Below, one piece after another: positions 5,530 to 43,554 of a stretch of 46,386 nt of DNA. A program made the position numbers and the translations under genes. This stretch comes from Omnitrophica WOR_2 bacterium RBG_13_41_10 (GTDB taxonomy: Bacteria; Omnitrophota; Gorgyraeia; Gygaellales; Profunditerraquicolaceae): NCBI GenBank assembly GCA_001805465.1, contig MHGH01000013.1, forward strand, positions 53,631-100,016. Reading direction: 5' to 3'. Position 1 is the stretch's first letter. The number at the start of each line of letters is the position of its first letter. The notes under the pieces were generated by a model. That model was not told where the DNA came from. It worked only from the letters and a program-made list of their open reading frames with translations, and did no database searches.

Positions 5530-6525
5530 CTAGGCTTCTCTTAAGAATTTTGCGGATAATTCAGGCGGGGTAGCTACAACGTAAACCCCGGAACCCCATT
5601 CAAAACCTGCTACGCGCGTCAACTTTGGCATAAATTCAATATGCCAATGATAATATTCTGTATCGCTATCGCCGTTAATGGGCGAAGAATGGATAATAAA
5701 ATTATAGGAGGCATTGGGAAAAATCTTTTTTAGCTTTATGATGGTGTCTTTCAGTATCACTGCCAATGCCGGCAGTTCCTCTGCAGATATTTCATAGAAA
5801 AAGCCGTTATGTTTTTTGGGGATAATACAGATTTCAAAAGGAAAACGCGAGACAAACGGGCAAAAAGATAAAAAGTATTTGTTCTCTAGGATTATTCTTT
5901 TCTTTTCTTCTTTCTCCTGACGAATCATATCGCAGAATAAACAACGTTCGCGGTAATTAAAATAATGATGCGCACCGCGGATTTCTTCCATGGCATTCTT
6001 GGGCACCATCGGTAGAGCCACTATTTGAGTATGCGGATGCTCCAGGGAAGCGCCGGCAGCCGCACCGTAATTTTTAAAAATCATAATATATTTAAAGCGT
6101 TTATCTTTAATTAAATCGACTGTCCTGCGGCAATACATAGAAAGGAACTTCTCTACTTCCTCACCAGATAAATCGTAAATATCTTTCTGATGATACGGGG
6201 TTTCTAGCAGCACCTCATGCGCACCCACGCCATTAGACATATCATACATGCCTGAACCGCGCCGGTCGAGTTCGCCTTCGATTTGCAGTGCGGGAAATTT
6301 ATTAGGGACTACTCTTACCTGCCAGCCGGGCGTATTGGGGCTGGTGTGCGGATCACGGATGGCCTCTATCTCTGGAGGGGTCATCGCTTCATTTCCGTAA
6401 CAAAAAGGGCATGTCCCCCCGCGAAAAGTACGCGGCTCGTATTCGAATTCTTCGGGCTTACTAGGATGATCGGTATTTACGATCACCCATCTGCCGCCTA
6501 TAGGATCCCTTCTTAACTCTGACAT
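5530..6525 (-). CDS. Galactose-1-phosphate uridylyltransferase-like (GalT/HIT superfamily) nucleotidyltransferase, catalytically intact copy
   Basis: [12 protein letters not shown], the Zn knuckle [15 protein letters not shown], and the intact HxH motif LEHPHTQ. I set the start to the internal ATG at 6525 (MSELRRDP...), 2 nt after the upstream stop. The 26-codon track extension overlaps the upstream gene. Confidence 0.8.
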
Positions 6526-6527
6526 AT

Positions 6528-7553
6528 TTAAACTGCAACCTCTCTTAAAAATTTTGCCGCATCTTCTGGCGGCAAAGGGCAGATATAAAACCCTGTCCCC
6601 CACTCAAATCCAGCTACCCGGGTTAACCTCGGCATTATTTCAATATGCCAATGATAATCATGGTCTATGCTCTTCCAATAGCCTACCTTGGGGCGCTTAA
6701 AGGGGGCTGTATGAATAACGTAGTTATAAGGAGGGTCATTCAGGCCTTTTTTTAATTTGGCAAGGGTTTTTCGTAAAATCCGGGCCAGATCAAGACGCGA
6801 TGCCATCTCCAGGTTTGTAAAATCGCAGGAATGTTTTTTGGGCAAAATCCATGCTTCAAAAGGAAACCTTGAGGCAAAAGGGCTTATTGCGATATAACCG
6901 TCGATATCCAATATCAGGCGGTCTTTAGTTTCTAATTCCTGCCTAATAAGATCGCAAAATACGCATCTTTCGTGATATTCATAGTAATGCCTTGCGCCTA
7001 CGAGCTCTTCTTTGACGCGTTTAGGATTGACGGGGGTAGCGATTATCTGAGACCGGGTATGCTTGATCCTGCCACTACCGGCAGCCCAACCGTAATTTTT
7101 AAAAATTAGGACGTATTTAAAACGTTTATCTTTTTCTAGATCTAATACACGATCACGGTAACAGGCGATTACTTTAGCTATCTGCTCATCGCTTAAATCT
7201 GCCATATTGGCTATATGCTGATTAGTTTCAATAATAATCTCGTGCGCTCCGATACCGTTCATTAAATCATATAATCCGTCCCCGCGCCGGTCAAGATCTC
7301 CTTCAATTCTCAAAAAAGGCGCAATGCTCGGTACCACTCTTAAATCCCATCCGGGAGCATTAGCGGGATTGTTTCTAGGTCTTATGGCGTATATTTCCGG
7401 GGGAGTTTCTTTTTCTTTACCTTCACAAAATGGGCAGGGTTTTTCCACCGGTTCCTGCTCAGCTTGAGCAGTAAACTGATCAGGCCTTTTAGAGCGCTCG
7501 GTAGCAATAATAACCCATCGGCCTATAATCGGATCTTTTCTTAGTTCCGGCAT
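6528..7553 (-). CDS. GalT-like paralog lacking the canonical HPH nucleophile motif
   Basis: Colinear with the downstream paralog: [53 protein letters not shown]. The position of HPHTQ reads HTRSQ instead. Confidence 0.75.
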   Translation of the reverse strand: MPELRKDPIIGRWVIIATERSKRPDQFTAQAEQEPVEKPCPFCEGKEKETPPEIYAIRPRNNPANAPGWDLRVVPSIAPFLRIEGDLDRRGDGLYDLMNGIGAHEIIIETNQHIANMADLSDEQIAKVIACYRDRVLDLEKDKRFKYVLIFKNYGWAAGSGRIKHTRSQIIATPVNPKRVKEELVGARHYYEYHERCVFCDLIRQELETKDRLILDIDGYIAISPFASRFPFEAWILPKKHSCDFTNLEMASRLDLARILRKTLAKLKKGLNDPPYNYVIHTAPFKRPKVGYWKSIDHDYHWHIEIMPRLTRVAGFEWGTGFYICPLPPEDAAKFLREVAV

Positions 7554-12158: not shown

Positions 12159-14558
12159 TCAAACAAAATAGTTCTTATTTTCCTTGACCCATTCAGTAAG
12201 CTTTCTAATCCCTTCTTTTACGGGAGTTTTAATTTTCCAACCCAGGGCTTTTTCTAACTTCGTAATGTCGGTAATATAAACCTTCTGGTCAGAAGGCCGC
12301 CAATCGGAAAAATTTACCTTTGGCCTTTTACCGGTTAGCAGCTTGAGCTCATCTAAAAATTCTAACAGCGAAATAGTATTGCCGGGGCCGCCTCCGATAT
12401 TAAAAAGCCCCCGCTTTAAATCGCTTTTTATAAAACGATTGAATGCATCCACTAAATCATCGGCATAAAGCATATCGCGCACCTGTTTGCCATTGCCATA
12501 AATAGTAATGGGTTTATTGAATAGTGTGGCAATAATAAACCAGGCCACCCAGCCCTGGTCTTCAAAGCCAAACTGGCGCGTACCGTAAGTACAATTATGC
12601 ACTAGAAAGCCATTTGCAAAGAAATTATGCTGATTGGGAACTGTAATATCATAAATATCGGACATGGGGGTTTTCTTTTTTTCTATTATCCTATCCCATA
12701 GCAATCCGTTGCCGTTAAGTAGGTAGGTATTTTCTTTTAACCACTCATCATAACAACTGTAAGGCAAGCCGGTTTTTAAGAACTCTGCAATATTAAAAAG
12801 GGTTGATTTTCGTTTTTCATTAAACGCGAAACCTATCTTTGCGAAATTTAATATGTTCTGTTTCGATGCATTGATTATAAGATCAAAACAGATTGATTGT
12901 TGCCCATCTTTCTTGCTAAAGAAATTAGCCTTTGTCGTATAAACCTTTGTCTTAATTCCTCTCTTTTTCAACATAGATACAATTTGTTTTCTAAAACGAG
13001 TAAGGCTTTTATGCAATTTTATTGTTTTTGACTGCGTAAAATGGGGTGGTTGTAAATCTAAACCATTCCCGCCCTTTCTTCTATAAAAGTTAGGCGCGCT
13101 CATTTCTGCGCCAAAAAGACCAGATAAATATTCATCCTGCACATCATCTTGCGCTTCTAGTATCCATTTGGGCACTTGGAATTTCACCCTACTTTTATTG
13201 CCAACAGGCACACCAAGTAATTCAAAGAAAGCAAAGGCTTCTGTTTTAGTAATTGAGAATCTATAGCTTGTACCGCTTATAATTTGTCCACTTGAAAGCA
13301 TAGAAACTGATGAGGAACATCTTGTTTTACCGACTCCAAAACCAAGCTTCCTGAAGCTTTCTTTAATATTTTCAATTTCGTCTTTAAGAGCATATACCTG
13401 TATTTCAGTATAAGACTTGCCATTAGGCTTAATCCTGTGGTACATATGTGCATCTCCTGTCAGATATCCGACTAAGCGCGATATTAAATATATGTTTTTA
13501 TTCCTAAGAGAAAGTGGCAATAGCTCTTTTGCTTCCAAATTTTTTATATAAATTAAATTATTAGCGGACATCCTGCCATATTTTTTAATGTGCGCTGCGT
13601 ATTTTTCTTTTGAGAATATAATTTTATTTGGCAGGAAACTAGTATATTTTCTTTTTACAAAGAAAAACTCAGGGCATGTGGCAACCAAGCTTCCATAATC
13701 TATATTTTCTAAACTTTTGTAACCCGACGGAGTAAAAAAGGGATGGTCTCCTGTGGCCTCTATTCGATATCCTCGCTTAGTCCTAATGCTATATAAGGTT
13801 TTCCCTCGGTTTGCCGTTTTAAAAGCTCCGCTCGTAGATTTGGTATCGATACTATTGCCTAAACAATATACCTGCGCCTTCCTTCCGTTTATTTGACTAA
13901 TCTTTATTGAACCTTGAGGAGTAGCAACTTCTGTATTCTTTGATAGACAACTCATGCGGAATACTGCGGTTTTCATTTTATAAATATGGCTATATTCTTG
14001 AACATATAGATCACCCACCAGCTTACTGACTCCGTATGGGGTATGCCCGGTTAAATCTGTGCACATATCTTCAGATACGCCCTTGGTGCCGCCAAAAATA
14101 TATCTTTTTCCTTGCTCTAAAAGAGGAATTTTATCTACGTTCTCTCCGTAAACTTTATTAGTTGAGCAGTAAATAACAATGGTGTCTTTAGATTTTTTGC
14201 GCGTTGCCTCTAAAACATTTAAGGTACCGAAAGCATTAATACTAAAGTCTTCCTTAGGCATACGTACGCTTGAAGGCACACCCGGCTGACCGGCAGTATG
14301 TATCAAAACATCTACCCCTTTTCCGATTGCCTTAGCAACATCTTTATCATTACGCACATCACCCTTAATACGCTCTATATTTTTAAACTTTTTTAGATAA
14401 TTCCAGTTAAACTCTACCGAGTCTTTATCATACCCAAAAATCTTTGAGCGCATCAGGTTATCTAAAACAATAACTTTATTCTTAAGGCTATCCAAGGCAA
14501 AAAACTCGGCGCAATGCGAACCCACTAAGCCTGCTCCTCCGGTAATAAGTATTTTCAT
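12159..14558 (-). CDS. NAD-dependent sugar-nucleotide epimerase (CDP-paratose 2-epimerase-like SDR) interrupted by an intein
   Basis: The N-extein (aa 1-203) has ILITGGAGLVGSH and the catalytic YGVSKLVGD. The C-extein (aa 656-799) begins CTYGTRQFGFEDQGWVAWF...GNGKQVRDMLY. Joined, the 347 aa match the RfbE-type epimerase layout (FRxS-xYGxRQF..DQGWV.WF). Confidence 0.9.
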   Translation of the reverse strand: MKILITGGAGLVGSHCAEFFALDSLKNKVIVLDNLMRSKIFGYDKDSVEFNWNYLKKFKNIERIKGDVRNDKDVAKAIGKGVDVLIHTAGQPGVPSSVRMPKEDFSINAFGTLNVLEATRKKSKDTIVIYCSTNKVYGENVDKIPLLEQGKRYIFGGTKGVSEDMCTDLTGHTPYGVSKLVGDLYVQEYSHIYKMKTAVFRMSCLSKNTEVATPQGSIKISQINGRKAQVYCLGNSIDTKSTSGAFKTANRGKTLYSIRTKRGYRIEATGDHPFFTPSGYKSLENIDYGSLVATCPEFFFVKRKYTSFLPNKIIFSKEKYAAHIKKYGRMSANNLIYIKNLEAKELLPLSLRNKNIYLISRLVGYLTGDAHMYHRIKPNGKSYTEIQVYALKDEIENIKESFRKLGFGVGKTRCSSSVSMLSSGQIISGTSYRFSITKTEAFAFFELLGVPVGNKSRVKFQVPKWILEAQDDVQDEYLSGLFGAEMSAPNFYRRKGGNGLDLQPPHFTQSKTIKLHKSLTRFRKQIVSMLKKRGIKTKVYTTKANFFSKKDGQQSICFDLIINASKQNILNFAKIGFAFNEKRKSTLFNIAEFLKTGLPYSCYDEWLKENTYLLNGNGLLWDRIIEKKKTPMSDIYDITVPNQHNFFANGFLVHNCTYGTRQFGFEDQGWVAWFIIATLFNKPITIYGNGKQVRDMLYADDLVDAFNRFIKSDLKRGLFNIGGGPGNTISLLEFLDELKLLTGKRPKVNFSDWRPSDQKVYITDITKLEKALGWKIKTPVKEGIRKLTEWVKENKNYFV
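12594..13949 (-). mobile_element. Class 1 intein (452 aa) carrying a LAGLIDADG homing endonuclease domain
   Basis: Block A is CLSKNTEV (Cys1 codon at 13949..13947). Block B is IEATGDHPFF (TxxH). The two LAGLIDADG-like motifs are LVGYLTGDAHM and YLSGLFGAEMS. Blocks F/G are NFFANGFLVHN followed by the +1 Cys (codon 12593..12591). Confidence 0.9.
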
Positions 14559-16126: not shown

Positions 16127-17359
16127 TTATAATTTTTTCTTAATTAGTATATTTTTACTGAATTTTATTTTAACCAACGCACTAAATAAAAATAATGCAC
16201 CTAAGGTTACTACAGAGCATGACTCAAACAAATCCTGTAATTTATTACCTACCAAAGATTCGCTACCCCAGGAACATAAAATAAAAGAAATCAACACAAG
16301 AAAAACAATCGCCTTATCTTTAAATTTGGACATTATTAAATAATATATAATTACCATGTAAGGGAAAAATACTGATACAAAGTTATGCATCCAAGCATTG
16401 GGATTAAATAATGCTATGCAAATAAAAAGCATTCCGTAATCTATGCAATTATAGAATTGATTTAATTGTGGCATTAGCATTTTTCTATTAGCAGGAAAAA
16501 TAATAAAAAGGTACAATATAATACAAAAGATTGCGGCTATTAATAATGTTGTATCGATACTGAGCTTCGCAACCTGTATACAGTATGGGCTATCCTTTGA
16601 TAATACTCTAGCTGCCATAGACCAGAGAGATTGATTTTTATAATCTAAAAATGAAATTTTATCGAAAGAGGTTGCTGAAATAAAAGGTAACCATTTATTA
16701 AGATAAAGCGAATTTCTTTCTATGCCTATAAATAAAATAGGCAATAAGCAATAAAACAAAATTAAAATAATAATAAATGTCAGGAGCCTATACTTCTTTT
16801 TTAAGAAAAAATAAGGAAGAAATAAGGCTGACGTGTATTTTATCATTACAGATCCACTTATAAAAAATGAGCCAGTCAATTCATGTCTTTTAGATATAAA
16901 ATACAGCCCGAAAATCACTAATGTAAGCATAAGTATACTTGCTTGCCCAGAAACAAGGCTATACACGAAGAATCTAAAATTAAGAATAGCTACCATAAAA
17001 TATGTAAGAAACTTTTGATTAGAATTCAAATCTTTAAAAAATATTAACTTCTTAGATAATTCAAATATAAGAAATATACACAAGATGCTCAAAATAAAAA
17101 ACAAATTTGCTGACGTCCGCTCGCTAAAAATAGCTAATGGCGCCATAAATAAAGCAAATAGTGGGGAGTATTTAAAAGGCGTAATTTCTTCTTTTGAGCG
17201 GGTATATATATCCTGTCCCTGTAAAATTCTCTTACCTGTAGCGTAATAAACACGATAATCGCAAAAGTGCCTTTGTGGGGCGCGGTATTGATAGTGAATA
17301 AATAAACCTAAAAATGTACCAATTAATAGAAAACTAACTATAGTTTTACGCCACATCAT
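16127..17359 (-). CDS. Polytopic membrane glycosyltransferase, GT87/DUF2029-like (GT-C fold)
   Basis: 410 aa with more than 10 TM. The first-loop motif GQDIYT...PFKYSPLFALFMAPL is typical of DUF2029/GT87. It lies immediately downstream of a polyprenyl-phosphate-type GT2. Confidence 0.55.
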   Translation of the reverse strand: MMWRKTIVSFLLIGTFLGLFIHYQYRAPQRHFCDYRVYYATGKRILQGQDIYTRSKEEITPFKYSPLFALFMAPLAIFSERTSANLFFILSILCIFLIFELSKKLIFFKDLNSNQKFLTYFMVAILNFRFFVYSLVSGQASILMLTLVIFGLYFISKRHELTGSFFISGSVMIKYTSALFLPYFFLKKKYRLLTFIIILILFYCLLPILFIGIERNSLYLNKWLPFISATSFDKISFLDYKNQSLWSMAARVLSKDSPYCIQVAKLSIDTTLLIAAIFCIILYLFIIFPANRKMLMPQLNQFYNCIDYGMLFICIALFNPNAWMHNFVSVFFPYMVIIYYLIMSKFKDKAIVFLVLISFILCSWGSESLVGNKLQDLFESCSVVTLGALFLFSALVKIKFSKNILIKKKL

Positions 17360-18083
17360 AAAATTTTCTTAAGTTATTAAATTTGATTTTAAAGAGGTCA
17401 AAAAACATACAGATAGAATCATTAAATATTGCCACTCGTGATTGCAAACAATTTAACCAAATTATCGGAACCTCTTTTATTTTATAACCTAATGACTTTG
17501 CTATATATAGAATCTCAACATCAAAACAAAAACCATTTAGTCTCTGTAGGCTAAATATCTTATGTGCTACCTCCTTTCTAAAACATTTAAAGCCGCACTG
17601 GGTATCCTTTATTCCCTTTATAATAAATAACCTTACCAATAAATTAAAAATCTTTCCCATGTTTTTTCTATACCACGGTTGTTTGAGTAAAATTTGTGAG
17701 TCTTTTAAAGCGCGTGAACCTATGACAATATCGTAACCTTTATTAAAATGTGGAAAGAACTTTTCTATTTCTTCGATAGGTGTAGATAAATCTGCATCGC
17801 TGAATAATACATAATCACCTCGTGACTCCAAAACACCTCTTTTCACACTAAAACCCTTCCCCATATTCTTTCTATTTCTTAAGATCTTGATATTTGAATG
17901 TCCTCTAGATAATGAATCTACCAAATTATATGTGACGTCTGTACTTGCGTCATCAATTATTATTATTTCGTAGAGATAATTATGAATTTCAAAATAATCT
18001 AATGTCTTCTCTAATGTTTTAACTATCCTTACATTTTCATTATAAGCGGGTATGACTACAGAAATATAAATATTATGGTTCAT
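17346..18083 (-). CDS. Glycosyltransferase family 2, polyprenyl/dolichyl-phosphate hexosyltransferase-like (GtrB/DPM1-like)
   Basis: ISVVIPAYNE, IIIDDASTD, FSDADLSTP and DTQCGFKCF motifs. Confidence 0.8.
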   Translation of the reverse strand: MNHNIYISVVIPAYNENVRIVKTLEKTLDYFEIHNYLYEIIIIDDASTDVTYNLVDSLSRGHSNIKILRNRKNMGKGFSVKRGVLESRGDYVLFSDADLSTPIEEIEKFFPHFNKGYDIVIGSRALKDSQILLKQPWYRKNMGKIFNLLVRLFIIKGIKDTQCGFKCFRKEVAHKIFSLQRLNGFCFDVEILYIAKSLGYKIKEVPIIWLNCLQSRVAIFNDSICMFFDLFKIKFNNLRKFYDVA

Positions 18084-18090
18084 TTATATC

Positions 18091-19212
18091 TTATTTATCC
18101 ATAATGTCTTTTAAAACACTTGTAATAAATTTAATCTGCGTTTCTTTTAAATGCGGATACATCGGTAAAGATAAAATTTCTTTTGCTATCCTTTCTGCTA
18201 CTGGAAAATCTCCCTTTTTATAACCTAAATCCTTATATACTTCCTGTAGATGCAGAGGTATGGGGTAATGTATCAATGCTCTAATTCCTTTTTTAGCAAG
18301 TTCCTCTATTACCCTATCTCTATTTTTGACTCTTATTGCAAAAACATGATAAACATGATAGGCATAGCCAGCTTCCAAAGGAAAAATCAGGCCTTTTATG
18401 CCCTGAAGTTCTCTAAGATATATCTTGGCATTCCTACGGCGTAAGGCGTTCCATTTATCCAGATGTTTTAATTTCACCCTTAATACCGCTGCCTGAATGG
18501 TATCAAGCCGGGAGTTATACCCTAAAGTAATATGCTCATAGCGCGAACGGCGGCCGTAGTCGCGCAGCATTAACAGTTTTTTATAAATTCCTTCATCATC
18601 TGTTAAGCACATTCCGCCATCACCAAAAGCACCTAAATTTTTAGTAGGATAAAAACTAAAAGCGCCTATATCAGTCATGCTTCCGGCTATTTCCCATTTA
18701 CCGTTAGGCATCTTATATTTTGCGCCGTGCGCCTGCGCAGTATCTTCTATGGCTTTTAAATTATATGCTTTAGCGATTTTTAAAATAGGCTGCATATCCG
18801 CAGGTTGCCCGTATAAATGGACGGGGATTATAGCCTTGGTTCTATTGGTAATTGCGGCCTTAATCTTACCGGGATCTATATTATAAGTGCGCTCGTTGAT
18901 ATCTACAAAGACTGGCTTGGCACCCGTATAACTTACTGCTAAGGCCGTGGCAATATAAGTAAAAGTTGGCACAATAACTTCATCGCCGGGCCCCACCCTT
19001 AAGCTTAATAATCCTAGAAATAATGCGTCTGTCCCGGAATTAACCCCAACAGCAAATTTCTTATGACAATATTGAGCAAATTCCTTTTCAAATAATGCCA
19101 CCTCTTCTCCTAAAATAAAGTCATAATTTTTTACCGTTTTATTAAAAGCGGCGTTAAAGTCTTTTTTTGCTTCTTTTATCTGTTGACTTAAGTCTAGAAA
19201 TGGTATTTTCAC
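18091..19212 (-). CDS. DegT/DnrJ/EryC1/StrS family PLP-dependent sugar aminotransferase
   Basis: FEKEFAQY, GTDAL, and FSFYPTKNLGAFGDGG, which retains the Schiff-base Lys. Confidence 0.85.
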   Translation of the reverse strand: MKIPFLDLSQQIKEAKKDFNAAFNKTVKNYDFILGEEVALFEKEFAQYCHKKFAVGVNSGTDALFLGLLSLRVGPGDEVIVPTFTYIATALAVSYTGAKPVFVDINERTYNIDPGKIKAAITNRTKAIIPVHLYGQPADMQPILKIAKAYNLKAIEDTAQAHGAKYKMPNGKWEIAGSMTDIGAFSFYPTKNLGAFGDGGMCLTDDEGIYKKLLMLRDYGRRSRYEHITLGYNSRLDTIQAAVLRVKLKHLDKWNALRRRNAKIYLRELQGIKGLIFPLEAGYAYHVYHVFAIRVKNRDRVIEELAKKGIRALIHYPIPLHLQEVYKDLGYKKGDFPVAERIAKEILSLPMYPHLKETQIKFITSVLKDIMDK

Positions 19213-21313: not shown

Positions 21314-22302
21314 CCTATAACGCTCCTTACTTTATCTAAAACCTCTGCTACAGTAATATCATCTAAATTATTTTTCTCTATTATAATGCTCCCTTTGCTC
21401 TTTGGGCCCCATCTGGTAGCGCTTTTTCCCGGGATATCGCTGCGAAATATGGCTATTACCGGAATATCTACGCAGCAAGCCAAGTGCACGGGACCGCTAT
21501 CCCCAGAGATAAGTAATTTTGTTTTTTTAAACAGCCCTGCCAATTCTTTGAGGGTTGTCTTTCCTGTCAAATCAATTATGCTGTCATTTAAATTAGTAAA
21601 ATATTCCTGGCTTTTTATGACCTCTTCTTTGCCGCCGATTATAACCACACTTAAATTTGTTTCTTTGACTATTTTTACTGCTAATTCTATAAAATTATGT
21701 ACCGGCCATTGTTTTATGGAATCGCTCGTCCAAGGGTGTATAATAATAAATCCGGATTCATTGTTTATACCGCGTTTGGCTAAAATTTTTAACGCCTGCC
21801 CCTCCTCTTCCTTATCAATAAAAACAGAAGGCAACCGGTTATCTGAATCTACGCCAATAGCTTTTACTAAATCAAAATTATAATCAATTTCATGTTTAAT
21901 ACCTAAAGACTTAAGGTCCTTAATCTTTCTATTCAAAAGGAATCTCCACTTACGGCCGTAGCCGACTCTAATAGGAATCCCGGCTAAAAAAGTTATCAGA
22001 TGAAATTTTTTCTTGGGATTAAAAATTACTGCTAAATCAAATCTATGTTTTCTTATTTCATTTATAGTCTTTATAGTCCGTACGATACCTCTATTGAGAG
22101 AGTCATCATATTCTAAAATTTCATCAATTGTTTTATTTCCACGAATAAGCTCTGTGCTATAGGGATGAGCCATTACGGTAAGACGGCTTTTGGAGAAATT
22201 TTCTTTCAGCGCAAAAATCGCAGGCAAGGTCAAGATAAATTCACCAAATCGATCTGTCCTTATTGCCAAAATATTTTTAATTTCCTTTGCATCTATCTTC
22301 AT
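21310..22302 (-). CDS. Glycosyltransferase family 9 (heptosyltransferase-like)
   Basis: ILAIRTDRFGEFILTLPA and the C-terminal GDSGPVHLA motif. Confidence 0.8.
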   Translation of the reverse strand: MKIDAKEIKNILAIRTDRFGEFILTLPAIFALKENFSKSRLTVMAHPYSTELIRGNKTIDEILEYDDSLNRGIVRTIKTINEIRKHRFDLAVIFNPKKKFHLITFLAGIPIRVGYGRKWRFLLNRKIKDLKSLGIKHEIDYNFDLVKAIGVDSDNRLPSVFIDKEEEGQALKILAKRGINNESGFIIIHPWTSDSIKQWPVHNFIELAVKIVKETNLSVVIIGGKEEVIKSQEYFTNLNDSIIDLTGKTTLKELAGLFKKTKLLISGDSGPVHLACCVDIPVIAIFRSDIPGKSATRWGPKSKGSIIIEKNNLDDITVAEVLDKVRSVIG

Positions 22303-22323
22303 AAATAAACTAAGGGCTCTTTA

Positions 22324-23010
22324 TTATCCAAAGAATTTTACCTTCAAAGTTGCTATAATCGCTGGTATTATATCGCTGGCTTTAACTTTTTTTCCTTCAA
22401 TCCTTGGTCGATAAGTTACAGCTATCTCTTTAATTCTAAATCTATATTTACATAATTTACTTACTACCTCAAAATCAAAACCAATACCGGTTGCTTGAGG
22501 ATTAATGGTTCTTAAAGCACTGGTACGATAAAACCTGTTGCCAATAATATCGGTAAAATTCTTATGATAAAAAAGATTGTTTAAAGAAGTAGTGATTATG
22601 GTCCCCAAATAAAACGGCCTATCTACTACAATGTTAATTTTAGAGTCGGCCTTTCTTTTCAATAAACGCGACCCAAAGACAGCATCAAGCCTTTCTTTTT
22701 CGGCTAATTCCAACATTTCGTACACGCAGCTTGGGTCATATTCTAAATCAGAATTATGCACGTACATGTATTCGCCTTTAGCCAACTTCATCCCCGTGAT
22801 CACCGACATGCCATAACCGTAATTTCTCGGTTGATAGACTATTTCCAGCGAGCTATCATTTATTTTTTTTAGAATTTCTCTTGTTCCGTCAGTAGAATAA
22901 TTATCCACGATAATGATCTGTTTCTCTATAGCTAAATCCTTGGCTTGCTCGATTGCTTTTACGATAGTGGATTCCTCATTATATACGGTAATTACTACTG
23001 TTAATTTCAT
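22324..23010 (-). CDS. Glycosyltransferase family 2 (polyprenyl-phosphate glycosyltransferase-like)
   Basis: LTVVITVYNEE, IIIVDNYSTDGT and HNSDLEYDP. Confidence 0.8.
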   Translation of the reverse strand: MKLTVVITVYNEESTIVKAIEQAKDLAIEKQIIIVDNYSTDGTREILKKINDSSLEIVYQPRNYGYGMSVITGMKLAKGEYMYVHNSDLEYDPSCVYEMLELAEKERLDAVFGSRLLKRKADSKINIVVDRPFYLGTIITTSLNNLFYHKNFTDIIGNRFYRTSALRTINPQATGIGFDFEVVSKLCKYRFRIKEIAVTYRPRIEGKKVKASDIIPAIIATLKVKFFG

Positions 23011-23011
23011 T

Positions 23012-24340
23012 TTACCTTAGCCTAAAAAAAGAATGGAATTTATCCAGGATATAGGCCATTTCCTTATGGCCTAACTTTGGATAAATGCCTATAAAAAATG
23101 AATTAGTCATTATAATATCTGAATTTTTAAGGCCGCCGACTATGCGGCATCTGATATCTTGGAAGGCCGGCTGCCTTAAGATATTTCCTGCAAAAATCAG
23201 CCTTGTTTGAATTTTTGCCTTTTCCAAAAAAGAGACCAAATCTTGCCTCCTAAATCCTACCTTTTCTCTTACGGTTATTGGAAAACAAAACCAAGAAGGC
23301 TGAGCTAACTGTTCCTGTTTAGGTAATATTAAAAAATCTTCGTATTTTCTTAATCCTTTGTAGAGGATATTAAAATTTTCCTTTCTTTTGCGCAGAAAAA
23401 AAGGAAGCTTTCTTAGCTGCTCTATTCCTATAGCAGCCTGCATATCGGTCAACTTAAGATTATAACCGATATGAGAATATATATATTTATGATCATAGCC
23501 AAACGGAAGCTTTCCCATCTTGCATCTAAATCTCTTTCCGCAAGTATTGTCTCTGCCAGAATCACACCAACAATCCCTGCCCCAATCACGAAAAGAACTT
23601 AGAATCTTCTTCAATGCTACATCATCAGTTAATACTGCGCCACCCTCACCTGTAGTTATATGATGAGCAGGATAAAAACTCGAAGTAGACAAATGCCCAA
23701 AGGTTCCTGTATATTTTTCATTATATTTTGCTCCCAAGGCATCGCAATTATCCTCGATAAGCCACAGATTATATTTTTTTACTATTTTCATAATTCTTAA
23801 GATATTTGCTGGATTACCAAGGGCATGGGCAATAAACAATCCTTTAGTCTTTTTGCTTATTGCCCTTTCTATTTTTTCTGCCTGAATATTATATGTTCCT
23901 AAATCAACATCGATAAAGACCGGGACTAGATTATTTTGGATGATGGGAGCTAAAGTCGTAGGAAAACAACAGGCGGTTGTAATAATCTCATCGCCAGATT
24001 GTAATGTTTTATTGCCTAACTTAGAGGATGTGAGCCCAGAAACAGCCAAAAGATTTGCTGATGAACCAGAGTTAGTAAGCATACAATATTTTATACCTAA
24101 AAATCTTGCTAAACCCTCTTCAAACTGCTTGGCAAATCTACCTGCGGTCAGCCAAAACTCCAAAGCAGCCTCAACTAGCTTCGATAACTCTTTGTCATCG
24201 TAAACACGCCCCGCGTAATGAATAATGGATTTTCCCGGTATAAATTGCTCGCTATTTTTATTTGACTCATAAAAAATAGAAACTTTTTCTAAGATTTCTT
24301 TTTTAATTTTTTTCTTGGTCTTATTTATTTTATGGCTCAT
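23012..24340 (-). CDS. rfbH: CDP-6-deoxy-L-threo-D-glycero-4-hexulose-3-dehydrase (E1; RfbH/DdhC)
   Basis: It has a DegT fold, but His replaces the Schiff-base Lys (SSFYPAHHITTGEGG). The E1 [2Fe-2S] spacing C-X57-C-X1-C-X7-C is exact by hand count (NCDALG...RDCWCDSGRDNTC). Confidence 0.85.
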   Translation of the reverse strand: MSHKINKTKKKIKKEILEKVSIFYESNKNSEQFIPGKSIIHYAGRVYDDKELSKLVEAALEFWLTAGRFAKQFEEGLARFLGIKYCMLTNSGSSANLLAVSGLTSSKLGNKTLQSGDEIITTACCFPTTLAPIIQNNLVPVFIDVDLGTYNIQAEKIERAISKKTKGLFIAHALGNPANILRIMKIVKKYNLWLIEDNCDALGAKYNEKYTGTFGHLSTSSFYPAHHITTGEGGAVLTDDVALKKILSSFRDWGRDCWCDSGRDNTCGKRFRCKMGKLPFGYDHKYIYSHIGYNLKLTDMQAAIGIEQLRKLPFFLRKRKENFNILYKGLRKYEDFLILPKQEQLAQPSWFCFPITVREKVGFRRQDLVSFLEKAKIQTRLIFAGNILRQPAFQDIRCRIVGGLKNSDIIMTNSFFIGIYPKLGHKEMAYILDKFHSFFRLR

Positions 24341-24343
24341 AAG

Positions 24344-26089
24344 CTAAGCGCGTAATGGTTTAATGATCATATTTGCTTTAAATTCATCGTCTGTTAAATA
24401 AGGATCTTGATCTTCCAATGGCTTATTCACCGCTAATTTAGGTAGAACCATACAGCCTTTCTTTATATCAACTTCTAAGAAACTTGGTTCGGTATCGTGA
24501 AAAATATTTTTTAGCGCTCTTTTAATTTGGCGGTTGTGTTTTATCCGTGTTGCCCTAATCTTATATGCAGAAACTAGGTCTTGAAAATCTGGCTCACTAT
24601 ATCCGATAACTGTAGATTGATACCTACCTGCAAAATATTGCTTTTGAAATTGCCTCACCATTCCATAACAATGATTGTTCAAGAGTATTATCTTGATGGG
24701 TAATTGATGGTGATATAGTGTTTGTAATTCCTGAACGTTTAGCTGAAAGCCGCCGTCGCCGGTAATCGCTACAATGATTTTTCCAGGTTTTGCAAAGGAT
24801 GCGCCGATTGCTGAAGATAAAACTGAACCCATAGCTGCCATACCGCCCTGAGTCAAAAACCGCTCTGAACCCTTTATCTTAAAGGATTGAGCTGCCCACA
24901 TTTGATTTTGACCGATATCTACGCAGATAATTGCACCTCTCGGAGCATATTCAGAAAGGGTATGGATGAAAAAATTTGGGTCGATGATATTGTCTTTGGT
25001 GGGATTTTTATAGGAAGGGTATTTATCCTTATATTCTTTTATTCTTTTTTTCCAAGACAATAATTTAGCTTTATTGAATTTTTTGATCTGCCTATTTAGC
25101 ACCGTAAGAAATTTTTCTACATCGGCATTCACTGCAAAATCCACTTTAATCTTATTATTGAGTTCACGGGGATCTATATCAACATGGATTATTTTAGCTT
25201 CTCTGGCAAATGTCTTAGTATTAGTGCCGGTCTGCCGCGTATCAAATCTCGTTCCTAAAGCCAAAACTAAATCTGCGTTTGCAATGGTTAAATTGGCGTA
25301 ACGATTACCGTAAGTACCAATCATCCCGACGAAATAATTTCCGCTATGGGGTATCGAATCTAACCCCATCAAAGAAGTAACGACGGGGATGCCTGTCTTA
25401 CGGATAAATTCTAATAGCACATCGCAGGCATTAGCAACTCTGACACCACCACCTGCCAAAATTACCGGCCGCTGAGCTTCTTTGAGGGTTCTGATTATAT
25501 TCTTTATTAATCGCGTATCAATGTATTGTACTACTTTTGGTTCCCGATATGATTTTAATAAATTAGGATTAATATCAGCTCGCTGTATGTTCATTGGAAT
25601 ATCCAGTAACACCGGGCCTGGCCGGCCGGACTTTGCCAAAAAAACCGCTTTTTCTAAATAATATCTTATCTTATTGGGCTGAGTTACTAGAATCGCTTCT
25701 TTAACAAGCGGCCTGATTATTTTTACAATATCTGTTTCTTGAAAACCGATTTGTCTCACCGGCTTGTTAAATTTGAACTCATAGGTATTAACCTGCCCGG
25801 TTATAAAAATACAAGGCGTGCTATCAAAAAAAGCGTTGCCAATTCCGGTGATTAAATTAGTTGCTCCCGGTCCGCTAGTTGCCATTGCTACGCCGATATG
25901 CCCACTGGCGCGGGCATAACCTTCAGCGGCAAATGCTGCGGCCTGCTCATGGTGCATAGAGACAGTAGATATATCTTTTCTTTTATATAATGAATCAAGT
26001 AGGTGCGTTATTGCTCCGCCGCAAACTTCAAAAATATACTGAATATTTTGCGAAACCAGGAAATCGATAACATAATCAGAGAGCTTCAT
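24344..26089 (-). CDS. Thiamine-diphosphate-dependent enzyme, acetolactate-synthase-large-subunit-like (YerE-like candidate)
   Basis: 581 aa with the three-domain AHAS layout. It has the N-terminal HEQAAAFAAEGYAR, TSGPGATN, and the ThDP motif GDGGFQLNVQEL...LLNN. It is embedded between the CDP-sugar genes. Confidence 0.8.
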   Translation of the reverse strand: MKLSDYVIDFLVSQNIQYIFEVCGGAITHLLDSLYKRKDISTVSMHHEQAAAFAAEGYARASGHIGVAMATSGPGATNLITGIGNAFFDSTPCIFITGQVNTYEFKFNKPVRQIGFQETDIVKIIRPLVKEAILVTQPNKIRYYLEKAVFLAKSGRPGPVLLDIPMNIQRADINPNLLKSYREPKVVQYIDTRLIKNIIRTLKEAQRPVILAGGGVRVANACDVLLEFIRKTGIPVVTSLMGLDSIPHSGNYFVGMIGTYGNRYANLTIANADLVLALGTRFDTRQTGTNTKTFAREAKIIHVDIDPRELNNKIKVDFAVNADVEKFLTVLNRQIKKFNKAKLLSWKKRIKEYKDKYPSYKNPTKDNIIDPNFFIHTLSEYAPRGAIICVDIGQNQMWAAQSFKIKGSERFLTQGGMAAMGSVLSSAIGASFAKPGKIIVAITGDGGFQLNVQELQTLYHHQLPIKIILLNNHCYGMVRQFQKQYFAGRYQSTVIGYSEPDFQDLVSAYKIRATRIKHNRQIKRALKNIFHDTEPSFLEVDIKKGCMVLPKLAVNKPLEDQDPYLTDDEFKANMIIKPLRA

Positions 26090-27072
26090 ATGTTTATTCC
26101 TATTTTATAATTATCGCTTTTATATAAAGACAGATTTTCTTTGAACCATTCAATAGTTTTCTTTAAACCTGCTTTTAAAGAATAAGTTGGCATCCAGTTT
26201 AAGATTTTTTTTGCCTGTGAAATATCGGCAACCCAAACTGACGGTTCAATACGCGGATTAGGAATACGGCCCCAATCAGGCTTAACTTTCTTTCCTGTTA
26301 ACTTGATGATTTCGCTGACAACCTCATATACCGAATTCTGATTACCCGAACCGATATTAAATATCCCGCCTTTAACTTTGCTGCTATTTTCTATGGTTTT
26401 CATATAAGCGCTTACCACATCTTCAATAAATACGAAATCTCTCACTGGTTCCGGAGATGAAACCCCGGGATTTTCGCCATTTATGCAAGATAATATTACC
26501 GAAGGAATCAACCGGTTAGCTTCTTCGTAATATCCGTATGGCGAAAACAACCTTAGTGTTACTATTTGCCGGCCTTCGCTTATAGCCACTGCTTGACAAT
26601 ATAAAGTGGCGGCGGCTTTTGATACTCCGTAATCGGTTACCGGAGCTAATATGCCGCTTTCCTTCATTGGTTTAGATTTTATACCATATTCCGAAGAAGA
26701 ACCAGTATTTATAAAAATTTCGAAATCTATCATTTTACATGCATTGATTAGATTGACTGTGCCCATAAAATTAGATTCAAGAATTTTTCTGTCTTCTTTT
26801 TGAAAAAGATATCCTCCGTAAGCTGCTGTATGTAATATGATATTTGGTTTGATATTTAAAATATTTTTTTCTAAAACAGGGTAATCTAACAATTCTACGG
26901 TATATTGCTTTAAATCATTCGGGACATCAGCTATCCTCCATTTATTTGAGTCTTTACGGGTAAAAATATGCACTTGGGCACCTGTCTTTAAGAAGGCGCG
27001 CGTAAGATTTGCGCCAACAAAACCATTGGCACCGGTAATTAAGACCTTTTTGCGAAGTAATCTTGATACCAT
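26086..27072 (-). CDS. NAD(P)-dependent sugar epimerase/reductase (extended SDR)
   Basis: VLITGANGFVGANL and the catalytic YGVSKAAATLY. It overlaps both neighbouring genes. Confidence 0.8.
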   Translation of the reverse strand: MVSRLLRKKVLITGANGFVGANLTRAFLKTGAQVHIFTRKDSNKWRIADVPNDLKQYTVELLDYPVLEKNILNIKPNIILHTAAYGGYLFQKEDRKILESNFMGTVNLINACKMIDFEIFINTGSSSEYGIKSKPMKESGILAPVTDYGVSKAAATLYCQAVAISEGRQIVTLRLFSPYGYYEEANRLIPSVILSCINGENPGVSSPEPVRDFVFIEDVVSAYMKTIENSSKVKGGIFNIGSGNQNSVYEVVSEIIKLTGKKVKPDWGRIPNPRIEPSVWVADISQAKKILNWMPTYSLKAGLKKTIEWFKENLSLYKSDNYKIGINI

Positions 27073-28019
27073 TTAATTGTTTCCTTGAGGGCTGCCTCTA
27101 ACTTATGATGCGGCCTCCATTTTAATATTTTTTTAGCTTTAGCAGCCGAAAGATACTGATATTTAATTTCGTATTTTGCTTGATTGGTTATCTTGTAATT
27201 CGGTTTTTGTTTACCCGATAACCGGGATATTATTTTGACTAATTCTAAAACTGAAAGAGGAGATTCATTGCTGAAATTAAACGCCTCGCCACTAATTTTC
27301 AAGTTTTGCATGTTCTCTGCCAAAAGTAGATACCCAGAAATGATGTCTTTTATATAGATATAATCTCGCGTAAATTTTCCGTCACTGCGGATAATTAAGG
27401 TTTTATTTTTTATAATTGACCTTATAGCATCGGGTACAATCCTTGAAAAATTAAAATCTCCGGGTCCAAAGATATTCCCGCAACGCGTAATGCATACCGG
27501 CAAGCCATAGGTATGAAAATATGTGTAAGCTAATAAGTCTGCGCAGCTTTTAGACACATCGTAGGGATGGCAACCACAGAGCGACGAATCTTCCCGATAA
27601 GGCAATTTATTCTTGATTCCGTATGCCTTATCGCTCGAAGCTATAATGGCTCCTTTGGTAAATTTAGAGTGTCTTGAGGCTTCTAAAATGTTCCAGGTCC
27701 CTCTGATATTGGTGGAAAATGTCTCCAGAGGATCAGCTAACGCTTCCCCTACCAGAGAAGTAGCGGCTAAATGAAAAATAAATTCTATTTTATTTTGTAT
27801 AATAATTTTATAAACCAAATCATAGTCTGCAACGCTTCCTTTTATAATGTTAATCTTGCTAGAATCATTGGTTAAAATAGTATTCTTTCTGCGGGTTAAT
27901 ATATCCAAACCGAATACATTGGCCTGATATTGTAATAATGCCAAAGTTAAATGAGAACCTACAAAACCTTCATAACCGGTAATAAGGATATTTTTATTTT
28001 TCCAGAAGTTATTTTGCAT
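27039..28019 (-). CDS. rfbG: CDP-glucose 4,6-dehydratase
   Basis: MQNNFWKNKNILITGYEGFVGSHL and YDVSKSCADLL. I set the start to the ATG at 28019, which is preceded by GGAGGT. The longer track ORF overlaps rfbF. Confidence 0.85.
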   Translation of the reverse strand: MQNNFWKNKNILITGYEGFVGSHLTLALLQYQANVFGLDILTRRKNTILTNDSSKINIIKGSVADYDLVYKIIIQNKIEFIFHLAATSLVGEALADPLETFSTNIRGTWNILEASRHSKFTKGAIIASSDKAYGIKNKLPYREDSSLCGCHPYDVSKSCADLLAYTYFHTYGLPVCITRCGNIFGPGDFNFSRIVPDAIRSIIKNKTLIIRSDGKFTRDYIYIKDIISGYLLLAENMQNLKISGEAFNFSNESPLSVLELVKIISRLSGKQKPNYKITNQAKYEIKYQYLSAAKAKKILKWRPHHKLEAALKETIKWYQDYFAKRS

Positions 28020-28039
28020 GGTGAGGTACCTCCACCCTA

Positions 28040-28840
28040 TTAATCTTTCCAGACTTTCCAGGGGGCTTTTTTGTTTTTCCATAACTCATTTAATATGTCT
28101 AGCTCCCTTTGGGTATCCATACATTGCCAGAAACCTTCATGCAGATATACAGATAACTGCTTTTCTTTGGATAATTTTTCTAGTGGCTCACGCTCGAGAT
28201 AACAATTATCTTCTTCTTTTAGATAAGTAAAGAATTTTCTATTGAGGACAAAAAAACCACCGTTTATAAAACCCTCTTTTACCTGCGGTTTTTCATTAAA
28301 TTCAGTAATATTGTTCCCCTTAATCATCACTTCTCCAAAACGCGAAGGAGGATGTACTCCGGTAACTGTTCCTATTTTCTTACAAGTTCTATGGTGTTCC
28401 AATAATTTTCCAATATCAATATTGCCTACTCCATCCCCGTAAGTAACCATAAAGATATCTCCATCAATATGCTTCTCTATTCTTTTAATCCGGGCACCTG
28501 TCTGGGCTTCGTTTCCGGTATTAACCAAGGTAACATTCCAATCTTTCTCTAGATGGCCACTATGAAATTGTATGGTATCATGACTACCCAGCTTGATACT
28601 AAAATCGTTATTCATCGCTTCATAATTTAAGAAGTATTCTTTAATCATTTCTCCTTTGTAACCTAAACAAAGGATGAAATCTTTAAAACCATACTGAGCG
28701 TATATCTTCATTATATGCCAAATGATAGGCCTATTGCCAATTTCTACCAAAGGTTTAGGGCGAATTTCTGTTTCTTCTCTTAACCTAGTCCCCCTTCCAC
28801 CACATAATATTACTACTTTTATTTTTTCATTTTTCTGCAT
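28040..28840 (-). CDS. rfbF: Glucose-1-phosphate cytidylyltransferase
   Basis: VVILCGGRGTRLREETEIRPKPLVEIG..PIIWHIMKIY, LCLGYKG and GFWQCMDT are typical RfbF/DdhA signatures. Confidence 0.9.
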   Translation of the reverse strand: MQKNEKIKVVILCGGRGTRLREETEIRPKPLVEIGNRPIIWHIMKIYAQYGFKDFILCLGYKGEMIKEYFLNYEAMNNDFSIKLGSHDTIQFHSGHLEKDWNVTLVNTGNEAQTGARIKRIEKHIDGDIFMVTYGDGVGNIDIGKLLEHHRTCKKIGTVTGVHPPSRFGEVMIKGNNITEFNEKPQVKEGFINGGFFVLNRKFFTYLKEEDNCYLEREPLEKLSKEKQLSVYLHEGFWQCMDTQRELDILNELWKNKKAPWKVWKD

Positions 28841-32631: not shown

Positions 32632-32639
32632 TTATCTTC

Positions 32640-33623: not shown

Positions 33624-33642
33624 TTTCTAAATATAGTTATTT

Positions 33643-42453: not shown

Positions 42454-42455
42454 TA

Positions 42456-43019: not shown

Positions 43020-43032
43020 ATCTAAATCCTTA

Positions 43033-43545: not shown

Positions 43546-43554
43546 ATAGGCTCT

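What the first reader, a model, noticed from the sequence alone, without database searches (positions are those of the whole stretch)
12594..13949. Full-length LAGLIDADG intein inside a CDP-paratose-2-epimerase-like sugar-nucleotide SDR
The 799-aa ORF is a 347-aa epimerase split after FRMS by a 452-aa insert. The insert begins CLSKNTEV (block A) and contains TGDH (block B). It has two LAGLIDADG-like motifs (LVGYLTGDAHM, YLSGLFGAEMS) and ends GFLVHN, followed by Cys+1. Removing the insert restores the conserved FRxS-xYGxRQF..DQGWV.WF segment just after the catalytic YxxxK. All splicing nucleophiles are present (Cys1, the penultimate His, the terminal Asn and Cys+1), and both endonuclease acidic residues are retained. 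The element therefore looks active rather than decayed. Inteins mostly sit in replication and repair proteins, so a cell-surface deoxysugar enzyme is an uncommon host and this insertion site may be unrecorded.
Basis: partly seen in the sequence, partly recalled or inferred. Interest (0 to 1): 0.8.

Follow-up and report, generated by a model that had tools for sequence, protein, structure and literature searches.

The report
Mobile intein inside a sugar-nucleotide epimerase
A sugar-nucleotide epimerase gene of an uncultured Omnitrophota bacterium is interrupted by a complete self-splicing protein element (intein) with its own DNA-cutting enzyme, and sequence comparisons suggest it has moved between bacterial lineages, but it is an ordinary intein in an unusual host protein.

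Summary
ORF 12159..14558 (-) encodes 799 aa. Residues 204-655 (window 12594..13949) are a 452-aa insert between FRMS and CTYG.

The insert passes the curated cut-offs of three intein profiles. It has Cys1, TGDH, a terminal HN and Cys+1. A confident AlphaFold model matches intein homing endonucleases (TliVMA, PI-PkoII, PI-PfuI, PI-SceI) and free LAGLIDADG nucleases.

The joined exteins align without a gap to CDP-tyvelose 2-epimerase structures and to more than 100 intein-free 347-aa Omnitrophota orthologues. The closest of these lies on a syntenic contig, and its DNA alignment breaks exactly at the intein ends.

At least 14 other public sequences carry an intein at the same site (37-87% identity). 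Seven full-length close copies are exactly 452 codons with no stops. dN/dS is about 0.1, including the endonuclease domain. Synonymous divergence of the inteins is far lower than that of their host genes, which indicates horizontal movement (homing).

The nearest other inteins sit in mostly archaeal proteins such as RtcB, S12, MCM and Pus10.

Verdict: a canonical, probably active class-1 LAGLIDADG intein at an apparently undescribed site in an uncommon host. It is a new member of a known kind, of modest interest.

The parts
12159..14558 (-). Precursor ORF (799 aa plus stop): tyvelose-epimerase-like extended SDR interrupted by the intein
13950..14558 (-). N-extein, aa 1-203. It holds the Rossmann GGAGLVG motif and catalytic Y175GVSK179 (14022-14036), and ends in FRMS.
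12594..13949 (-). Intein, 452 aa (precursor residues 204-655)
   Evidence: PF14890 67 bits, TIGR01445 44.9, TIGR01443 34.7. AF2 model with pLDDT 88, and Foldseek hits to intein endonucleases.
13635..13949 (-). N-terminal splicing (Hint) region, about intein aa 1-105. It includes Cys1 (13947-13949) and block B TGDH (13743-13754; T66 and H69 invariant).
12753..13634 (-). LAGLIDADG homing-endonuclease domain, about intein aa 106-399 (approximate boundaries)
   Evidence: Foldseek hits to PI-PfuI, PI-SceI, I-OnuI and I-DmoI. dN/dS 0.05-0.15.
13443..13475 (-). LAGLIDADG motif 1, LVGYLTGDAHM. D166 sits just after predicted helix 153-165.
13098..13130 (-). LAGLIDADG motif 2, YLSGLFGAEMS. E282 is the last residue of predicted helix 268-282.
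12594..12752 (-). C-terminal splicing region, intein aa 400-452 (blocks F and G: DIYDITVPNQHNFFANGFLVHN). It ends in His451-Asn452 (12594-12599).
12162..12593 (-). C-extein, 144 aa. It starts with Cys+1 (12591-12593) in CTYGTRQFGFEDQGW, the start of the substrate-gated loop.

Best explanation
The 452-aa insert is a canonical class-1 intein that carries a two-motif LAGLIDADG homing endonuclease. It sits in an essential-looking, highly conserved tyvelose-epimerase-like NDP-sugar SDR of a Candidatus Omnitrophota bacterium.

Splicing (inferred). The gene is translated as a 799-aa precursor. The intein lies between the residues equivalent to TaTyvE Ser192 and Ser193, at the start of the substrate-gated loop in the interdomain cleft, so the precursor should be inactive. 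Splicing would follow the standard four steps: an N-S acyl shift at Cys1 assisted by block B Thr66/His69, trans-thioesterification to Cys+1, cyclisation of Asn452 assisted by His451, and an S-N shift. The expected products are a 347-aa epimerase of about 39 kDa and a free intein of about 52 kDa.

Homing (inferred). The free intein, with D166 and E282 as its catalytic acids, is expected to cut the intein-free allele around ...TTYCGCATGTCN|TGTACTTACGGCACG.... Repair using the occupied allele as template would then copy the intein in.

Shown here: the anatomy, family membership by profile and predicted fold, exact excisability, purifying selection on the whole element, and an intein genealogy that is younger than and discordant with the host gene.

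Not shown: actual splicing, actual cleavage and the target sequence.
For: Profiles pass curated cut-offs: PF14890 67.0 against 35.8 bits, TIGR01445 44.9 against 24.5, TIGR01443 34.7 against 15.6. There is also a 183.6-bit match to the intein part of NF038162, the RtcB-related intein protein.

PDB sequence hits to DnaB, CDC21 and DnaE inteins cover both termini.

The AF2 model has pLDDT 88 and pTM 0.90. Foldseek top hits are the TliVMA intein 7qss (1.5e-13), PI-PkoII 2cw7, PI-PfuI 1dq3 and PI-SceI 1ef0, followed by I-OnuI, I-DmoI and the bI3 maturase.

C1, T66, H69, D166 and N452 are invariant in 13 inteins down to 27% identity, and E282 and H441 are nearly so. The penultimate His451 is kept in all ten epimerase inteins of the alignment but not in the two S12 inteins.

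The extein aligns gap-free to 9RL0 and 1ORR and to more than 100 347-aa orthologues at 84-94% identity.

The syntenic empty allele L001 is 88.7% identical in nucleotides to the spliced gene. Its alignment breaks exactly at the intein ends.

Eight occupied alleles are all 452 codons with no stops. dN/dS is 0.07-0.15 for the intein and 0.05-0.15 for the endonuclease domain.

For the same pairs, intein dS is far below extein dS. For L006-L004 it is 0.30 against saturated, with a same-codon fraction of 0.84 against 0.49 (p = 1e-22). For WIN-L005 the same-codon fractions are 0.71 against 0.52 (p = 3e-7).

The window's nearest extein is the empty L001. The nearest occupied extein is only 77% identical.

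Cys+1 is native in all 86 orthologues. The Ser-1 codon is AGY in 7 of 7 occupied alleles against 22 of 78 empty ones (p = 3e-4), which fits co-conversion or target preference.

The insertion point maps to Ser192|Ser193 of the CDP-gated loop Ser192-Trp207 (PMC13098431).
Against: There is no experimental evidence of splicing or DNA cleavage.

Pfam LAGLIDADG_3 is below its cut-off for this protein (14.3 against 22.5 bits).

Motif 1 reads GDA in the window and in L005, where the other epimerase inteins in the alignment have GDG. The effect of this change on activity is unknown.

Global TM-scores to solved inteins are low (0.27-0.36). This is expected for multi-domain proteins whose domain orientations differ, but it is not strong on its own.

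Purifying selection on the endonuclease domain could partly reflect a need for correct folding for splicing rather than nuclease activity.

dS estimates for the exteins are saturated, so the intein-host contrast is qualitative. The codon-bias test at Ser-1 is not phylogenetically corrected.
Confidence: 0.85

Rival explanations
1. The intein still splices but no longer homes. On this view the LAGLIDADG domain has lost nuclease activity. It is kept only because deleting it would disturb folding and splicing of an essential enzyme, or because it has been co-opted for another role.
For: Pfam LAGLIDADG_3 is sub-threshold. The window and L005 have GDA instead of GDG in motif 1. Splicing constraints alone can produce purifying selection.
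Against: Both catalytic acids are conserved down to 27% identity. dN/dS of the endonuclease domain is as low as that of the splicing domain. No mini-intein derivative was found among about 15 alleles: every complete intein is 451-453 aa. Inteins are much more alike at synonymous sites than their hosts, which requires recent lateral movement.
Confidence: 0.1
2. The intein acts as a conditional switch, for example a redox switch. Splicing through Cys1 and Cys+1 at the mouth of the active site would be held back under some conditions, so the intein would regulate envelope sugar synthesis. The host would then retain it for benefit rather than through pure parasitism.
For: The insertion lies exactly at the substrate-gated loop, so the precursor must be inactive. 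Both nucleophiles are cysteines. The whole element is under strong purifying selection. Conditional splicing has been proposed for other inteins (discussion in PMC4760082).
Against: More than 100 orthologues, including the closest relative, do without the intein. All 80 best-matching species-representative loci are empty. This patchy, rare distribution and the lateral-transfer signal fit a selfish element. No data here bear on regulation.
Confidence: 0.04
3. The arrangement is an artefact or a dead gene. On this view the insert is an assembly chimera, a non-splicing Hint-like domain, or an insertion that has made the epimerase a pseudogene.
For: The window comes from an uncultured organism, so assembly errors are conceivable.
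Against: The same in-frame architecture occurs at the same site on at least 14 independent contigs from different projects. All splicing residues are intact. The exteins are under strong purifying selection, with dN/dS of 0.02-0.07.
Confidence: 0.01

Closest known systems
Archaeal RtcB inteins (NCBIfam NF038162, intein-containing RtcB family) and related inteins in uS12, MCM, Pus10, HerA, RpoB/Rpb2, radical-SAM and thioredoxin proteins
   Same: These are the nearest relatives outside epimerases, at about 23-33% identity over the whole intein including the endonuclease domain. They share the motifs LLPL, G(Y/H)LxGDG, LGVPVGxK, FGAE and HNFFANGF.
   Different: The host protein and the insertion site differ. 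The hosts are mostly archaeal information-processing proteins, whereas this host is a bacterial envelope-sugar enzyme. The S12 inteins lack the penultimate His.
Structurally characterised intein homing endonucleases: TliVMA/PhoVMA (7qss, 7qst), PI-PkoII (2cw7), PI-PfuI (1dq3), PI-SceI (1ef0, 1lws)
   Same: The same bipartite design, a Hint splicing domain split by a two-motif LAGLIDADG nuclease. These are the best Foldseek matches, at E 1e-13 to 1e-8.
   Different: Sequence identity is only 10-16%, global TM-scores are 0.27-0.36, and the hosts differ (V-ATPase, DNA polymerase, RNR).
UDP-glucose/GDP-mannose dehydrogenase inteins of Euryarchaeota (COG1004, category M; Novikova et al. 2016, PMC4760082)
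   Same: A precedent for an intein in a nucleotide-sugar enzyme of envelope biogenesis.
   Different: The enzyme family is unrelated (it is not an SDR epimerase), and the hosts are archaeal rather than bacterial. Relatedness of the inteins was not tested here.
CDP-tyvelose 2-epimerase (TaTyvE 9RL0, StTyvE 1ORR), the host protein family
   Same: The spliced extein aligns over its full length at E 6e-73 and 7e-65, with YxxxK and the RxS-xYGxRQF...DQGW loop conserved.
   Different: No NCBIfam equivalog passes its cut-off. Position +1 is Cys rather than Ser. The substrate is unknown. The orthologue is conserved next to a GmhB-like phosphatase across Omnitrophota.

Membership tests
Intein (class 1, Hint superfamily) | Matches curated intein profiles above their cut-offs | tested here: met
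   PF14890 67.0 against 35.8 bits; TIGR01445 44.9 against 24.5; TIGR01443 34.7 against 15.6
Intein (class 1, Hint superfamily) | Cys/Ser at position 1 and block B TxxH | tested here: met
   Cys1, T66 and H69 are present and invariant in 13 aligned inteins
Intein (class 1, Hint superfamily) | C-terminal His-Asn followed by Cys/Ser/Thr at +1 | tested here: met
   The intein ends GFLVHN, followed by C. Asn452 is invariant, and Cys+1 is present in all 86 orthologues.
Intein (class 1, Hint superfamily) | In-frame insertion in a conserved host protein, whose removal restores a contiguous alignment with intein-free homologues | tested here: met
   Gap-free alignment to 9RL0 and 1ORR. More than 100 empty 347-aa orthologues. 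The DNA break-points are exact.
Intein (class 1, Hint superfamily) | Hint fold | tested here: met
   Predicted model with pLDDT 88. Foldseek hits to DnaB and RecA mini-inteins (rmsd 2.4-3.0 over about 98 residues) and to full inteins. This rests on a predicted structure, not a solved one.
Intein (class 1, Hint superfamily) | Protein splicing demonstrated | not testable with these tools
   Needs expression and detection of the 39-kDa and 52-kDa products
LAGLIDADG homing endonuclease (two-motif, intein-borne) | Pfam LAGLIDADG_3 (PF14528) above its cut-off | tested here: inconclusive
   The window intein scores 14.3 bits against a cut-off of 22.5. The homologous intein P0132 scores 30.6 bits.
LAGLIDADG homing endonuclease (two-motif, intein-borne) | Two LAGLIDADG helices, each with an acidic residue at its C-terminal end | tested here: met
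   Predicted helix 153-165 is followed directly by D166 (invariant). Predicted helix 268-282 ends in E282 (at least 90% conserved).
LAGLIDADG homing endonuclease (two-motif, intein-borne) | LAGLIDADG nuclease fold | tested here: met
   Foldseek probability 1.00 to PI-PfuI, PI-SceI, I-OnuI, I-DmoI (TM normalised to target 0.63-0.71) and the bI3 maturase
LAGLIDADG homing endonuclease (two-motif, intein-borne) | Mobility: patchy distribution and a genealogy discordant with the host gene | tested here: met
   Intein dS is far below extein dS for the same pairs. The nearest extein of the window is an empty allele.
LAGLIDADG homing endonuclease (two-motif, intein-borne) | Site-specific cleavage of the intein-free allele | not testable with these tools
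   Needs an in vitro cleavage assay on the L001-type junction
CDP-tyvelose/paratose 2-epimerase (extended SDR) | Rossmann GxxGxxG and catalytic YxxxK | tested here: met
   GGAGLVG at aa 7-13, and Y175GVSK179
CDP-tyvelose/paratose 2-epimerase (extended SDR) | Closest solved relatives are TyvE, over the full length | tested here: met
   9RL0 at E 5.7e-73 and 1ORR at 6.9e-65. The next hit, a GalE, is at 1.5e-32.
CDP-tyvelose/paratose 2-epimerase (extended SDR) | Curated equivalog model or demonstrated substrate | tested here: not met
   No NCBIfam model reaches its cut-off; the best is TIGR01181 at 150 against 365 bits. I therefore call the host 'tyvelose-epimerase-like' and treat its substrate as unknown.

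The most novel reading that the evidence does not exclude
The epimerase intein lineage may have entered Omnitrophota from archaea. Its nearest relatives outside epimerases sit in RtcB, uS12, MCM, Pus10 and Rpb2-type proteins. It now cycles by homing among co-occurring Omnitrophota populations at an intein site that no paper describes. This would be a cross-domain jump of an intein into a metabolic enzyme. It might also mark physical contact between Omnitrophota and archaea.
Probability: 0.25. Interest if true: 0.55.

Novelty: new member of a known kind. Interest (0 to 1): 0.35.

Why it matters
It adds a well-supported intein insertion site in an extended-SDR nucleotide-sugar epimerase, a host class outside the replication, repair and nucleotide-metabolism proteins where most inteins sit. 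The host is an uncultured bacterial phylum. Occupied and empty alleles coexist in metagenomes from the same sample series, and the sequences carry a clear signature of recent lateral spread. This makes a natural system for studying the homing cycle. The intein uses Cys1 and a native Cys+1 and is full length, so it could also serve as a new splicing or meganuclease reagent. It does not change how inteins are understood.

Tried and rejected
- Literature searches found no description of an intein in an SDR sugar epimerase. The terms were intein with epimerase, 'NAD-dependent epimerase', 'nucleoside-diphosphate-sugar epimerase', Ndse and Omnitrophica. Co-occurrences in papers on giant viruses and prasinoviruses were unrelated.
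- I recall that InBase listed 'Ter Ndse' inteins in a Trichodesmium sugar epimerase. I could not verify this, so it is not used as evidence.
- The supplement of Novikova et al. is not held.
- The scan of GTDB species representatives with the extein returned only empty alleles among the best 80 loci. Split matches score lower, so occupied genomes may have been ranked out. That scan therefore cannot give a frequency.
- tRNA and Rfam scans of the window were empty.
- A non-splicing insertion domain and an assembly chimera were both considered and rejected (see rivals).
- I could not determine whether the window lineage gained the intein or the L001 lineage lost it. WIN-L001 extein dS is 0.575, while dS to the nearest sampled intein, L005, is 0.67.
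Full report
**What is in the sequence.** The minus-strand ORF 12159..14558 encodes 799 aa. Window 12594..13949 (-) translates to a stop-free 452-aa segment, residues 204-655 of the ORF. It begins CLSKNTEV and ends GFLVHN. It is preceded by ...KMKTAVFRMS and followed by CTYGTRQFGFEDQGW.

- TGDH at 13743-13754
- LVGYLTGDAHM at 13443-13475
- YLSGLFGAEMS at 13098-13130
- HN at 12594-12599
- Cys+1 at 12591-12593

Removing the insert gives a 347-aa protein with GGAGLVG and Y175GVSK179. The insert has 35.4% GC, against 38.8% for the N-extein and 41.4% for the C-extein.

**It is an intein.** The insert passes three curated profile cut-offs: Pfam Intein_splicing at 67.0 bits (cut-off 35.8), TIGR01445 N-terminal region at 44.9 (24.5), and TIGR01443 C-terminal region at 34.7 (15.6). 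It also matches the intein portion of NF038162, an intein-containing RtcB relative, at 183.6 bits. PDB sequence searches hit DnaB, CDC21, DnaE, DnaX and RecA inteins at both termini.

I aligned 13 related inteins, down to 27% identity. C1, T66, H69, D166 and N452 are invariant. E282 and H441 are at least 90% conserved.

**The endonuclease domain.** Pfam LAGLIDADG_3 is sub-threshold for this protein (14.3 against 22.5 bits), so I tested the fold. An AlphaFold2 model built on 11 sequences has mean pLDDT 88 and pTM 0.90. Foldseek against the PDB ranks intein homing endonucleases first: TliVMA 7qss (E 1.5e-13), PI-PkoII 2cw7, PI-PfuI 1dq3, PhoVMA 7qst and PI-SceI 1ef0/1lws. Free LAGLIDADG enzymes follow (bI3 maturase, I-OnuI, I-DmoI), and then mini-inteins.

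In the model, D166 sits directly after helix 153-165 and E282 is the last residue of helix 268-282. This is the position of the catalytic acids in LAGLIDADG enzymes. Global TM-scores are low (0.27-0.36), as expected when the relative orientation of the domains differs.

**The host protein and the insertion point.** The joined exteins match Pfam Epimerase end to end (1-240 of 240). They align without a gap across the junction to CDP-tyvelose 2-epimerases 9RL0 (E 5.7e-73) and 1ORR (6.9e-65). Here vfrmS|Ctygtrqfgfedqgwvawf pairs with VFRHS|SMYGGRQFATYDQGWIGWF.

In TaTyvE the junction falls between Ser192 and Ser193. These residues open the loop Ser192-Trp207, which lies in the cleft between the two domains and closes over CDP on binding (PMC13098431). 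An unspliced precursor would therefore carry 452 residues at the mouth of the active site and should be inactive; this is an inference.

No NCBIfam equivalog reaches its cut-off. I therefore call the host 'tyvelose-epimerase-like' and treat the substrate as unknown.

**Organism and empty alleles.** The extein finds more than 100 protein clusters of 344-348 aa (mostly 347) at 84-94% identity. Where named, they are from Candidatus Omnitrophota. The 80 best-matching loci from the scan of species-representative genomes are all intein-free.

The closest protein, P0001 (94% identity), lies on a 194-kb JGI contig (L001). That contig is syntenic with the window: deacetylase, epimerase, GmhB-like phosphatase, MGDG-synthase-like glycosyltransferase, PriA, Fmt, two GalT-like genes, GAPDH, PGK, TIM and SecG. 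Its DNA aligns to the window at 85-91% identity on both sides, and the alignment breaks exactly at 13947 and 12594. The empty site reads ...CGCATGTCT|TGTACTTACGGC... and the spliced window gene reads ...CGCATGAGT|TGTACTTACGGT....

All 86 aligned orthologues have Cys at +1, so the intein uses a native residue.

**Other occupied alleles.** The same site carries a homologous intein in the following sequences:

- P0121: NCBI, Omnitrophica WOR_2 bacterium RBG_13_44_8b, annotated 'hypothetical protein'; 82% intein identity
- P0122: 69%
- P0123: 55%
- P0124: 50%
- P0125: 51%
- P0128: partial
- P0132: a more distant SDR with the junction NRFS|C...VHN|CLAG; 37%
- metagenome loci L005-L012: 81-87%

The gene neighbourhoods of P0121 and P0124 resemble the window. 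The window protein itself is already in NCBI nr. The element is therefore present in public data but, as far as I could find, not described.

**Is it active?** Eight full-length copies (the window and L004-L010) are each exactly 452 codons with no stop or indel. Nei-Gojobori dN/dS is 0.07-0.15 for the intein, 0.05-0.15 for the endonuclease domain (aa 106-399) and 0.02-0.07 for the exteins.

The main result is that, for the same pairs of genes, the inteins are much more alike at silent sites than the exteins:

| Pair | Intein | Extein | p (same-codon test) |
|---|---|---|---|
| L006-L004, dS | 0.30 | saturated | |
| L006-L004, nucleotide identity | 91.5% | about 76% | |
| L006-L004, same-codon fraction at conserved residues | 0.84 | 0.49 | 1e-22 |
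| WIN-L005, same-codon fraction | 0.71 | 0.52 | 3e-7 |

Seven further pairs show the same direction. Under vertical inheritance the two values should be equal, so this pattern indicates lateral spread of the intein between diverged Omnitrophota lineages.

The window's nearest extein is the empty L001 (88.6% nucleotide identity, dS 0.575). The nearest occupied extein is only 77% identical.

The Ser-1 codon is AGY in 7 of 7 occupied alleles but in only 22 of 78 empty ones (Fisher p = 3e-4, not corrected for phylogeny). The window has AGT where its closest relative has TCT, a two-base change. This fits co-conversion of the flank during homing or a target preference.

Whether the window lineage gained the intein or the L001 lineage lost it cannot be decided from these data.

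**Relatives of the intein.** An exhaustive HMMER search of 1.84 billion representative proteins found 1,360 hits at E up to 1e-3. After the epimerase alleles, the best hits (about 26-33% identity) sit in RtcB, a radical-SAM protein, ribosomal protein S12/S23, thioredoxin, HerA, Rpb2-type RNA polymerase, Pus10 and MCM. Metagenome loci L013-L018 are RtcB inteins, and several have the high GC typical of haloarchaea. An archaeal source for the lineage is plausible but untested.

**Comparison with what is known.** This is a standard class-1 intein with a two-motif LAGLIDADG endonuclease. The survey of Novikova et al. found that 61.5% of bacterial intein hosts are in COG category L and 21.7% in category F, with category M among the considerably less represented categories. 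That survey does list UDP-glucose/GDP-mannose dehydrogenase inteins in Euryarchaeota (PMC4760082).

The host class is therefore uncommon but not unprecedented. The SDR-epimerase site appears undescribed. I rate it a new member of a known kind, with interest 0.35.

Noticed in passing
window 23012-28840 (-): A block of genes for a CDP-3,6-dideoxy or branched-chain sugar. It holds glucose-1-phosphate cytidylyltransferase (TIGR02623, 344 bits against a cut-off of 300), a CDP-glucose 4,6-dehydratase-like SDR, a second SDR, an acetolactate-synthase-like TPP enzyme, and RfbH (NF011936, 688 bits against 423). This fits a CDP-sugar substrate for the intein-bearing epimerase, but the block lies about 9 kb away.
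   Followed up: partly
window about 21650-33640, compared with L001 2831-3479: The window carries about 12 kb of glycosyltransferase, Wzy-like, radical-SAM/SPASM and sugar-pathway genes, partly at low GC (0.30-0.36). The otherwise syntenic contig L001 lacks them at this place, so this looks like a strain-variable surface-glycan island. Window 16127-18125 (GT87 and GT2, GC 0.30) also has no counterpart in the blastn comparison with L001.
   Followed up: partly
proteins P0126, P0127, P0130, P0135, P0136 (not in the window): Full-length inteins of about 500 aa sit in archaeal-type ribosomal protein S12/S23. The three whose sequences I read (P0126, P0127, P0130) end in SN or GN, so they lack the penultimate His. 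They are among the closest relatives of the epimerase intein outside epimerases. A ribosomal protein is an unusual intein host.
   Followed up: no
L095, L101; also L027, L029, L042 and others: Intein-free orthologues of the epimerase (67-88% identity) occur on contigs from MAGs labelled Woesearchaeota archaeon or Planctomycetales. These are probably mis-binned or mislabelled Omnitrophota contigs, although a real transfer is not excluded.
   Followed up: no
window 30760-32631 (-) and 38738-40783 (-): Two long ORFs (623 and 681 aa) inside the glycan and radical-SAM gene clusters have no Pfam match at E up to 1e-5.
   Followed up: no
window 40785-45021 (-): A run of genes: a radical-SAM enzyme, a YdjM-like membrane protein, two small unannotated proteins, and a B12-binding radical-SAM enzyme. 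A flavin amine-oxidase/GLF-like gene lies next to them at 45047-46255. Function unknown.
   Followed up: no
window 5530-7553 (-): Two tandem paralogues resembling galactose-1-phosphate uridylyltransferase (DUF4921/DUF4931 type). The annotation is inferred from the conserved synteny with L001.
   Followed up: no
L003 and L011 (JGI sample Ga0315284): An empty allele whose protein is identical to P0001 and an occupied allele (85% intein identity to the window) come from the same metagenome. Occupied and empty populations therefore coexist in one sample.
   Followed up: partly
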